DNA from: the human T2T-CHM13v2.0 reference genome, Homo sapiens
Length of the DNA stretch: 64,000 nucleotides
Strand: one strand, 5' to 3'
NCBI RefSeq assembly: GCF_009914755.1
Contig: NC_060939.1
Of this stretch, positions 55,741-56,978 are shown one piece after another. Within the stretch, counting starts at the first letter, position 1, and each line of letters begins with the position of its first letter. The position numbers and the translations under genes are program-made. Below the pieces are notes generated by a model, which saw only the letters and a list, made by a program, of their open reading frames with translations, was not told the origin of the DNA and made no database searches.

Positions 55741-56978
55741 CAGCTGTTCTCCAGTTATTTCATCCCAAACCCCTTTACCCTCTTAAAAATTGTTGAGACG
55801 GAGTCTCGCTCAGTCGCCCAGGCTGGAGTGCAGTGGCGCGATCTCGGCTCACAGCAACCTCCACTGTCCGGGTTCAAGCAATTCTAATTCCTCAGCCTCC
55901 CGAGTAGCTGGGACGACAGGCGCCCGCCACCACACCCGGCTAATTTTTTGTATTTTAGTAGACACGGGGTTTCACCGTGTTGCCCAGGCTGGTCGCAAAC
56001 TCAGGAGCTCAGGCAATCCGCCCGCCTCGGCCTCCCAAAGTGCTGGGATTACAGGTACGGGTATTGATATTTACTGTATTCTTACTAATACGGTAATAAA
56101 TTTTTAAGTTACTAATTCATTTAAAAATAATATACATGTTAACAAACAGCTTTTTTAAGCTTTAAATGACCATTTTTTTGGCCGGGCGCGGTCGCTCACG
56201 CCTGTAATCCCAGCACTTTGGGAGGCCGAGGCGGGCGGATTGCCTGAGCTCCTGAGTTTGCGACCAGCCTGGGCAACACGGTGAAACCCCGTGTCTACTA
56301 AAATACAAAAAATTAGCCGGGTGTGGTGGCGGGCGCCTGTCGTCCCAGCTACTCGGGAGGCTGAGGAATTAGAATTGCTTGAACCCGGACAGTGGAGGTT
56401 GCTGTGAGCCGAGATCGCGCCACTGCACTCCAGCCTGGGCGACTGAGCGAGACTCCATCTCAAAAAATAAAATAAATAAATAAATAAAAAGAACATTATT
56501 TTCTAAAAAATATTTAGGCCAGGCGCGGTGGCTTACTCCTGTAATCCCAGCTCTTTGGGAGACCGAGGCGGGCAGATCACCTGAGGTCAGGAGTTCGAGA
56601 CCAGCCTGGCCAACATGGTGAAACCCTGTCTCTACTAAAAATGCAAAATTTAGCCGGGCATGGTGGCACATGACTGTAATCCCAGCTACTCGGGAGGCTG
56701 AGGCAGGAGAATCACTTGAAACCTGGGAGGTAGAGGTCGCAGTGAGCCGAGATTGTGCCGTTGCACTCCAGCCTGGAGACAGAGTGAAACTGCATCTCAA
56801 AAAAAAAAATTTTAGAAGAGTGGAACTGTTTTAGTTTTGAAAATATCTTTAATGCCTAGCTTAAAAGAAGACGTCTGAATTATCATACCTGTTTCTACAA
56901 TCTGTTGAGAAATGTAGTTGAAGCACATGAAGAAAATCTGGTCTTGCACAAATACATTTGTAATTGGAAAAGGGAGGC
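55741..56978 (+). mobile_element. hAT-Charlie DNA transposon fragment (Charlie1-like) interrupted by three Alu sequences
   Basis: cagctgttct...ccctttaccctcttaaaaattgttgag, ...taattcatttaaaaataa..., ...gaagaaaatctggtct...ttggaaaagggagg resemble the Charlie1 consensus as recalled. Confidence 0.65.
55793..56463. repeat. Near-perfect inverted Alu repeat: arms 55793-56055 and 56201-56463, 145-bp spacer
   Basis: Base-by-base comparison gives 262/263 identity; the ORF-track translations 55790(+) and 56155(-) are almost identical. Confidence 0.97.

What the first reader, a model, noticed from the sequence alone, without database searches (positions are those of the whole stretch)
55793..56463. 263-bp, 99.6%-identical inverted Alu repeat beside the LEO1 promoter, apparently a templated copy
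Seen: arms 55793-56055 and 56201-56463 differ at one base and share private changes (ctgaggaattagaattg, cccggacagtgg, cctgtcgtccc, ctcctgagtttgcgacc); the spacer is 145 bp. The right Alu is complete with its A-tail. The left copy lacks the first ~21 nt, the poly(A) and any TSD, and joins the Charlie-like host at a shared TTGAG. Knowledge: closely spaced, highly identical inverted Alus are depleted in the human genome because they form hairpins/cruciforms and cause breaks. Inference: a recent template-switch or repair-templated inverted duplication (or conversion). It predicts a fragile site, an invertible 145-bp spacer, and a near-perfect dsRNA (ADAR/MDA5/PKR substrate) if transcribed divergently.
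Basis: partly seen in the sequence, partly recalled or inferred. Interest (0 to 1): 0.7.

Follow-up and report, generated by a model that had tools for sequence, protein, structure and literature searches.

The report
Locally copied inverted Alu beside LEO1
Just upstream of the LEO1 gene two Alu repeats lie in opposite orientation and match at 262 of 263 bases; one is likely a local copy of the other, and a third relative on chromosome 7 suggests the pair is likely old and kept alike by repeated copying between its arms.

Summary
Confirmed: arms 55793-56055 and 56201-56463 match at 262 of 263 bases around a 145-bp spacer; 52 other close inverted Alu pairs reach at most 87%. The right Alu is an old, ordinary insertion. 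The left arm has no tail or target duplication, joins an old DNA transposon at a 5-bp microhomology and replaces about 35 host bases: a local templated copy. New: a third copy on chromosome 7 (96.5%) shares 12 derived changes with the right Alu but lacks five that both arms carry. At the single mismatch, 7 bp from the arm end, the left arm keeps the ancestral base while the right and chr7 copies share the derived one. That favours an older duplication later overwritten by arm-to-arm conversion (0.5) over one recent copy (0.33), and makes the right Alu a likely source element. The fragile-site and MDA5 predictions are weak: the spacer exceeds the ~100-bp hairpin range and the duplex would be intronic. 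Ape and population data could not be checked. New member of known kinds.

The parts
55326..55416 (-). LEO1 first exon; its start is 377 bp from the left arm
   Evidence: annotation in the finding
55463..55544 (+). Upstream first exon of minor MAPK6 transcripts; GT donor at 55545, 249 bp before the left arm, so the repeat lies in intron 1
   Evidence: annotation
55738..55797 (+). 5' piece of the old multi-copy host element (hAT/Charlie-like, name recalled), host positions 27-87
55793..55797 (+). 5-bp microhomology TTGAG shared by host and by the reverse complement of the right Alu's 3' end
55793..56055 (-). Left arm: tailless Alu copy without the first 21 nt and without target duplication
55799..55799 (-). 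Only mismatch between the arms; ancestral CpG state in the left arm, derived state in the right Alu (56457) and in the chr7 copy
56056..56200 (.). 145-bp spacer: 6 unassigned bases (56056-56061), host positions 123-256 in ancestral orientation (56062-56178, 79% AT with the six), and the 5' 21 nt of the right Alu
56164..56179 (+). 5' copy of the right Alu's decayed target-site duplication (13 of 16 identical to 56487-56502)
56180..56463 (+). Right Alu, full length; template of the left arm and likely source of the chr7 copy; keeps 20 of 25 CpGs
56464..56502 (+). T-interrupted A-tail, 3' target duplication (56487-56502) and the first run of four T (56499-56502), a possible Pol III stop
56800..56977 (+). 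Distal piece of the host element, positions 261-448, same orientation

Best explanation
The left arm is a reverse-complement copy of the neighbouring right Alu, likely written in by DNA-templated synthesis (a replication template switch or break repair primed at the TTGAG microhomology), and it is likely older than its identity suggests, with arm-to-arm conversion likely keeping it alike. Steps: (1) shown: the right Alu is a full-length insertion with tail and a decayed target duplication; (2) inferred: a host 3' end primed on the Alu's 3' end, copied 258 nt and rejoined about 35 bp further on in the host, giving an inverted repeat with an uninverted spacer; (3) inferred: the right Alu then gathered changes and gave rise to the chr7 copy; (4) inferred: later changes were passed between the arms by conversion or hairpin-guided correction, which missed the outermost site. 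Predicted effect: a stable intronic RNA duplex in minor MAPK6 pre-mRNA, edited in the nucleus; DNA hairpins only when the region is single-stranded; no function shown.
For: Local copy: 262/263 identity; no tail, no target duplication; 5-bp microhomology; host copies carry 30-37 bp between the two anchors (3 of 3; 33-36 bp in the 7 of 24 copies with both anchors) where this site has 258 Alu + 6 bases. Old age plus conversion: right, left and chr7 form one clade (100/98). Right and chr7 share 12 derived sites, 7 absent from 9 of 9 sister Alus; the left arm has 11 of the 12 and all 5 later in-arm changes, and lacks only the outermost one. All five CpG losses of the right Alu are shared with chr7; since the split 1 loss occurred in 40 site-lineages, so parallel loss is about 0.0006 (upper 0.017); a random reversion at the outermost derived site about 0.001, at any derived site about 0.02 (rough arithmetic). 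Free drift since the split would give about 11 differences. Conversion among neighbouring Alus is documented (PMC8230782, introduction).
Against: The age argument rests on one base, 2 nt from the microhomology. It could be a synthesis error at the junction, or host-derived if this host copy had lost one G (the host majority reads GAC there; not seen in the 15 host copies read). That CpG is the farthest from the CpG island and is decayed in 28 of 39 window Alus and in 2 of 9 sisters, so parallel loss may be likelier than my figure. No rate is known to me for complete homogenisation of 255 bp on an autosome, and none of 52 control pairs shows it. No outgroup or second human haplotype was seen. 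The six bases at the inner junction are unexplained. chr7 may be a conversion product and not a daughter; its target duplication is unreadable in an A-run.
Confidence: 0.5

Rival explanations
1. One recent template-switch or repair event (within the last few million years) made the left arm; the mismatch is a junction error, a host-derived base, a reversion or a parallel CpG loss.
For: Zero differences in 256 bp (95% upper limit 1.4%); one event explains lost tail, 5' truncation, host deletion and microhomology; template-switch events up to 318 bp are reported in human haplotypes (PMC9435742 passage); the mismatch lies 2 nt from the junction.
Against: Needs the only difference to restore the ancestral base at a site where right and chr7 agree; by my arithmetic a chance of a few per cent at most.
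Confidence: 0.33
2. The left arm was an unrelated older antisense Alu that lost its tail and 5' end by deletions (for example between two TTGAG words) and was overwritten once by the right Alu.
For: Explains the ancestral terminal base; the six inner-junction bases differ from the Alu's continuation by four transitions; the lost host stretch holds a run of four T.
Against: Needs two deletions and a full-length conversion across about 15-20% divergence; no relic of tail or target duplication; 4 changes in 6 bases is too many for a plain relic.
Confidence: 0.08
3. The left arm is a cDNA copy of the right Alu's own RNA, primed at a nearby break without the L1 endonuclease.
For: Geometry fits priming at the RNA's 3' end and stopping 21 nt short of its 5' end; anatomy matches non-classical Alu insertions (PMC5402677 section 7); the chr7 copy suggests the right Alu was transcribed and mobile.
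Against: An RNA copy has no strong reason to land 145 bp from its source and inverted; a DNA switch gives both.
Confidence: 0.07
4. Assembly artefact.
For: Only one assembly was available; near-perfect hairpins can disturb sequencing (own knowledge).
Against: An artefact would not be expected to remove 35 host bases, use a microhomology and carry the ancestral base; both junctions are clean.
Confidence: 0.02

Closest known systems
Four-point template-switch mutation, type 1-4-3-2 / 3-2-1-4 (PMC5453318, passages; PMC9435742, passages)
   Same: Nearby reverse-complement copy replaces a short stretch and creates an inverted repeat with an uninverted spacer.
   Different: 263 bp is near the upper end reported (318 bp); no ancestral allele from an outgroup was seen; the terminal base argues for later reworking.
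Non-classical, endonuclease-independent Alu insertion (PMC5402677, section 7 read)
   Same: No tail, no target duplication, truncated, deletion at the site, a few non-Alu bases.
   Different: The donor is the adjacent Alu, which points to a DNA template and not a roaming RNA.
Non-allelic conversion between neighbouring Alus (PMC8230782, abstract to methods read) and Y-palindrome arm conversion (PMC7999016, passage)
   Same: Arms share changes that arose late; the residual difference is at the tract end.
   Different: Complete over 255 bp in a 263-bp autosomal repeat; inferred from one in-genome relative, not from orthologues.
Alu source elements with an identifiable daughter (PMC3357318, passages)
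   Same: Full length, CpG-rich, four-T stop inside the 3' target duplication, one copy elsewhere sharing private changes.
   Different: Tail is T-interrupted, one CpG loss in the likely B-box region (position recalled); daughter status not proven.
Long near-perfect inverted duplicates in human pre-mRNA (PMC7006430, passages and Table S8 parts 3-5 of 6)
   Same: Intronic, over 96% identical arms; 197 such pairs over 300 bp are listed.
   Different: Under their 300-bp cut-off; its 145-bp spacer is shorter than that of all 32 listed pairs at 99% or more (smallest 213 bp, my subtraction).

Membership tests
Template-switch inverted repeat (four-point model) | Inserted piece is the reverse complement of nearby sequence | tested here: met
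   262/263
Template-switch inverted repeat (four-point model) | Host resumes a short way downstream, spacer orientation defined | tested here: met
   host 87 to 123, all pieces on + strand
Template-switch inverted repeat (four-point model) | Pre-event allele seen in an outgroup or other haplotype | not testable with these tools
   no ape or second human genome held; host majority used as stand-in
Non-classical Alu insertion | No poly-A tail and no target duplication | tested here: met
Non-classical Alu insertion | Deletion at the site and non-Alu filler | tested here: met
   29-35 host bases missing, 6 unassigned bases; assumes this host copy was intact before
Non-classical Alu insertion | No L1 endonuclease site at the pre-insertion site | tested here: inconclusive
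   site only inferred; the host majority has a four-T run in the lost stretch
Non-classical Alu insertion | RNA intermediate | not testable with these tools
   sequence cannot tell RNA from DNA template
Arm-to-arm conversion (concerted evolution) | Shared changes younger than the duplication; leftover difference at the tract end | tested here: inconclusive
   pattern present but the date of the duplication hangs on one base
Arm-to-arm conversion (concerted evolution) | Arms more alike within than between species | not testable with these tools
   no orthologues held
Alu source element | Copy elsewhere that shares private changes | tested here: met
   chr7 copy; 3 exact matches genome-wide to the early-change motif: both arms and chr7
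Alu source element | Pol III stop close to the tail | tested here: met
   four T 35 nt after the Alu end, inside the 3' target duplication; 853 nt for chr7
Alu source element | Long pure A-tail, intact A and B boxes, daughter with its own target duplication | tested here: inconclusive
   tail T-interrupted; change at 56259; chr7 flanks are A-runs
Hairpin-fragile inverted Alu pair | Very high arm identity | tested here: met
Hairpin-fragile inverted Alu pair | Spacer up to about 100 bp | tested here: not met
   145 bp; range from PMC3215922 passages; no frequent stalling in eukaryotic cells at 52 bp per PMC7999016 passage
Hairpin-fragile inverted Alu pair | Breaks or fork stalling at the site | not testable with these tools
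   no break-mapping data
Immunogenic (MDA5) inverted-Alu dsRNA | Both arms in one transcript, folding into a long duplex | tested here: met
   annotation plus (-631.7 kcal/mol, 0 of 20 shuffles)
Immunogenic (MDA5) inverted-Alu dsRNA | Retained in mature cytoplasmic RNA | tested here: not met
   intronic by annotation; intronic pairs are nearly excluded from the immunogenic set (10.1101/2022.08.29.505707 passages)

The most novel reading that the evidence does not exclude
A 263-bp Alu mini-palindrome next to the LEO1/MAPK6 promoter has persisted since before the great-ape radiation and repairs itself by arm-to-arm conversion, like a miniature Y palindrome on an autosome; its template arm was a low-activity source Alu whose chr7 daughter acts as a built-in time stamp; and the structure helps start the deletions reported upstream of LEO1.
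Probability: 0.2. Interest if true: 0.72.

Novelty: new member of a known kind. Interest (0 to 1): 0.45.

Why it matters
If the arms are old, near-perfect inverted Alus cannot be dated by their identity, and this site gives a direct, cheap test (six ape assemblies and the pangenome) of whether conversion keeps such pairs perfect in spite of the general purge of them. The chr7 copy adds a traceable parent-daughter Alu pair. The site also lies beside a promoter where three deletions have been reported (10.1101/102327, passages), so breakpoints can be checked against the arms. If it is one recent copy, it is a long but ordinary template-switch event.

Tried and rejected
An internal outgroup: the LEO1 promoter region has no paralogue in the window and the spacer matched only itself in the genome search (which skips common words). 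Further daughters: the chr12, chr22 and chr11 motif hits are 86, 80 and 82% alike, and the chr2 hit shares only one motif; one late-arm motif occurs in 134 places and is not diagnostic. The chr7 copy has no close inverted partner (best 84%, 4.6 kb away). Transversion excess in the right Alu (11 against 2; sisters 41 against 33): p = 0.066, not used. A 10-bp stem in the spacer: 47 of 300 shuffles reach it, rejected as evidence. Locus in print: searches named LEO1 or MAPK6 and gave 1, 2 and 2 papers; none is about this repeat by its listing, and the one I opened (10.1101/102327, passages) does not mention it in the passages seen. Supplements searched without a hit at this locus, using coordinate prefixes recalled from memory: PMC5402677 (5 files), PMC9435742 (11 of 22 files), PMC7954356 (6 files), PMC7006430 (3 files; 3 of 4 chr15 rows seen). 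Two primary papers (Aleshin and Zhi 2010; Lobachev 2000) were not held and are known only through citing passages. PMC3670932, PMC4666360, PMC8794818 and PMC5398296 (passages) gave background only. Subscription papers were not searched.

Full report
Observation. The arms 55793-56055 and 56201-56463 are 263 bp each and differ at one base, 55799 against 56457; the match ends sharply on both sides and the spacer is 145 bp. The next most similar Alu in the window is 85.3%. As a control I measured all Alu pairs within 1 kb in the window and 70 fetched loci (294,610 bases, 189 Alus; 11 loci dropped as repeats of this site, of the chr7 copy or of L015; the loci are not a random sample). Of 53 inverted pairs the other 52 reach at most 87.4%, and 76 direct pairs at most 88.6%.

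The host. Both junctions of the left arm lie in one old multi-copy element. Three genomic copies carry both flanking motifs 37, 35 and 30 bp apart. From 24 of 30 further loci (6 covered only the far end) the window pieces map in order and on one strand: 55738-55797 to host 27-87, 56062-56178 to host 123-256, 56800-56977 to host 261-448; the gap was 33-36 bp in the 7 of 24 copies where both anchors could be read. So 258 Alu bases plus six unassigned bases stand where about 35 host bases are expected, and the spacer has the ancestral orientation. The family name hAT/Charlie is recalled, not from a call. TTGAG at 55793-55797 belongs equally to the host and to the reverse complement of the right Alu's end.

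The two Alus are of different kinds. The right Alu (56180-56463) is full length, has a tail and a 16-bp target duplication with three differences; the left arm has none better than 6 of 8. This matches the anatomy of non-classical insertions (PMC5402677, section 7) and of a four-point template switch that makes an inverted repeat (PMC5453318 passages; events up to 318 bp in PMC9435742 passages). Because the donor is 145 bp away and inverted, I infer a DNA template.

A third copy. A genome search with the arm (40 of 6157 candidates scored) found a copy on chromosome 7 at 97%, the next at 92%. A motif with two early changes has three exact matches in the genome, the two arms and chr7, plus one unrelated 1-mismatch hit. 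Against the majority of 9 sister Alus (L005-L013, chosen by similarity, so biased), right and chr7 share 12 derived sites, 7 of them in 0 of 9 sisters; the right Alu has 6 more, chr7 has 4. The three form a clade at 100/98 (bootstrap not fully settled). Ten differences in 284 is 3.5% (1.7-6.4%), which by recalled primate distances is nearer human-orangutan than human-chimpanzee. The right Alu is the likelier parent: its target duplication is more decayed than that split would give, and a four-T stop lies 35 nt after its end against 853 nt for chr7, a hallmark in PMC3357318 (passages). The tails begin alike. Ectopic conversion or a lost third source is not excluded; the chr7 copy sits in an A-run, so its target duplication cannot be read.

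What the third copy says about age. The left arm carries all five later in-arm changes, so its body was copied after the chr7 split. But at the one mismatch it has the ancestral base, while right and chr7 share the derived base, a CpG loss. All five CpG losses of the right Alu are shared with chr7, and only one occurred in 40 site-lineages since; parallel loss comes to about 0.0006 (upper 0.017), reversion at the outermost derived site to about 0.001 and at any derived site to about 0.02; free drift since the split would have left about 11 differences (rough arithmetic). The simplest reading is that the left arm predates that CpG loss and was later overwritten except at its outer end. Against this: it is one base, 2 nt from the junction, where synthesis errors cluster (own knowledge) and where a host that had lost one G would supply the same letter (0 of 15 host copies read show that); that CpG is decayed in 28 of 39 window Alus; and no control pair shows such homogenisation. 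I give 0.5 to old-and-converted, 0.33 to one recent copy, 0.08 to an overwritten independent Alu, 0.07 to an RNA-templated local copy and 0.02 to artefact. That the left arm's present sequence was copied from the right Alu is near certain.

Consequences. The RNA folds into one long stem (-631.7 kcal/mol; 0 of 20 shuffles), and the pair lies 249 bp after a GT donor of the annotated upstream MAPK6 exon, so it would be intronic. Intronic pairs are nearly excluded from the immunogenic set (10.1101/2022.08.29.505707 passages), and 197 longer near-perfect pairs are listed in human transcripts (PMC7006430 passages). This pair is still unusually tight: the 32 listed pairs at 99% or more have spacers of at least 213 bp (parts 3-5 of 6 read). 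For DNA, the hairpin mechanism is placed at spacers up to about 100 bp (PMC3215922 passages), and a 52-bp spacer gave no frequent stalling in eukaryotic cells (PMC7999016 passage), so fragility is not expected by default; the AT-rich, self-folding spacer might lower the barrier. Three deletions upstream of LEO1, one an 8.7-kb polymorphism, are reported (10.1101/102327 passages); their coordinates are in closed supplements, so any link is open.

Standing. Each piece belongs to a known kind. I found no description of this repeat or of the chr15-chr7 pair in three locus searches or in the supplements searched; the other searches were for background. Subscription papers were out of reach. No ape or second human genome is held, so the deciding comparison was not run. 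Verdict: real, a new member of known kinds, interest 0.45.

Noticed in passing
window 21644-55416 (-): LEO1 is coding in this assembly: 12 of the 13 listed exons (without 25124-25221) give an open 666-aa frame. The table's 'transcribed_pseudogene' label seems to reflect one non-coding isoform.
   Followed up: yes
L051:3460-5190 (-), G000:C7:101827402-101827664: The chr7 sister Alu lies about 1.2 kb upstream of a CpG-island start codon (75-residue reading; by recall the start of LRCH4) and inside the A-tail of an older Alu. Both relatives are promoter-proximal.
   Followed up: partly
window 56249-56256: The two-base change at 56252-56253 is exactly an in-place inversion of an 8-mer of the sister Alus: a likely micro template switch, shared with chr7.
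   Followed up: partly
window 56367-56370 and L082: A three-change cluster makes a short self-complementary repeat and recurs in an unrelated chr2 Alu; possibly a recurrent quasi-palindrome correction in Alus.
   Followed up: partly
window 56180-56463: Non-CpG changes are mostly transversions (11 against 2 transitions; p = 0.066 against sisters), and several remove an AG dinucleotide; unexplained and post hoc.
   Followed up: partly
window 56071-56096: 10-bp stem with one mismatch in the spacer where the host majority differs; could be a small inverted copy, but 47 of 300 shuffles reach it.
   Followed up: yes
L005 (G000:C10:53733937-53734199): A sister Alu only 6 changes from the sister majority, with 23 of 25 CpGs and a long A-tail: this small lineage may have stayed active late.
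   Followed up: no
window 5055-5485 and 30586-31034: 80.5% direct duplicate over about 450 bp, in line with the old partial LEO1 duplication; the promoter itself is not duplicated.
   Followed up: no
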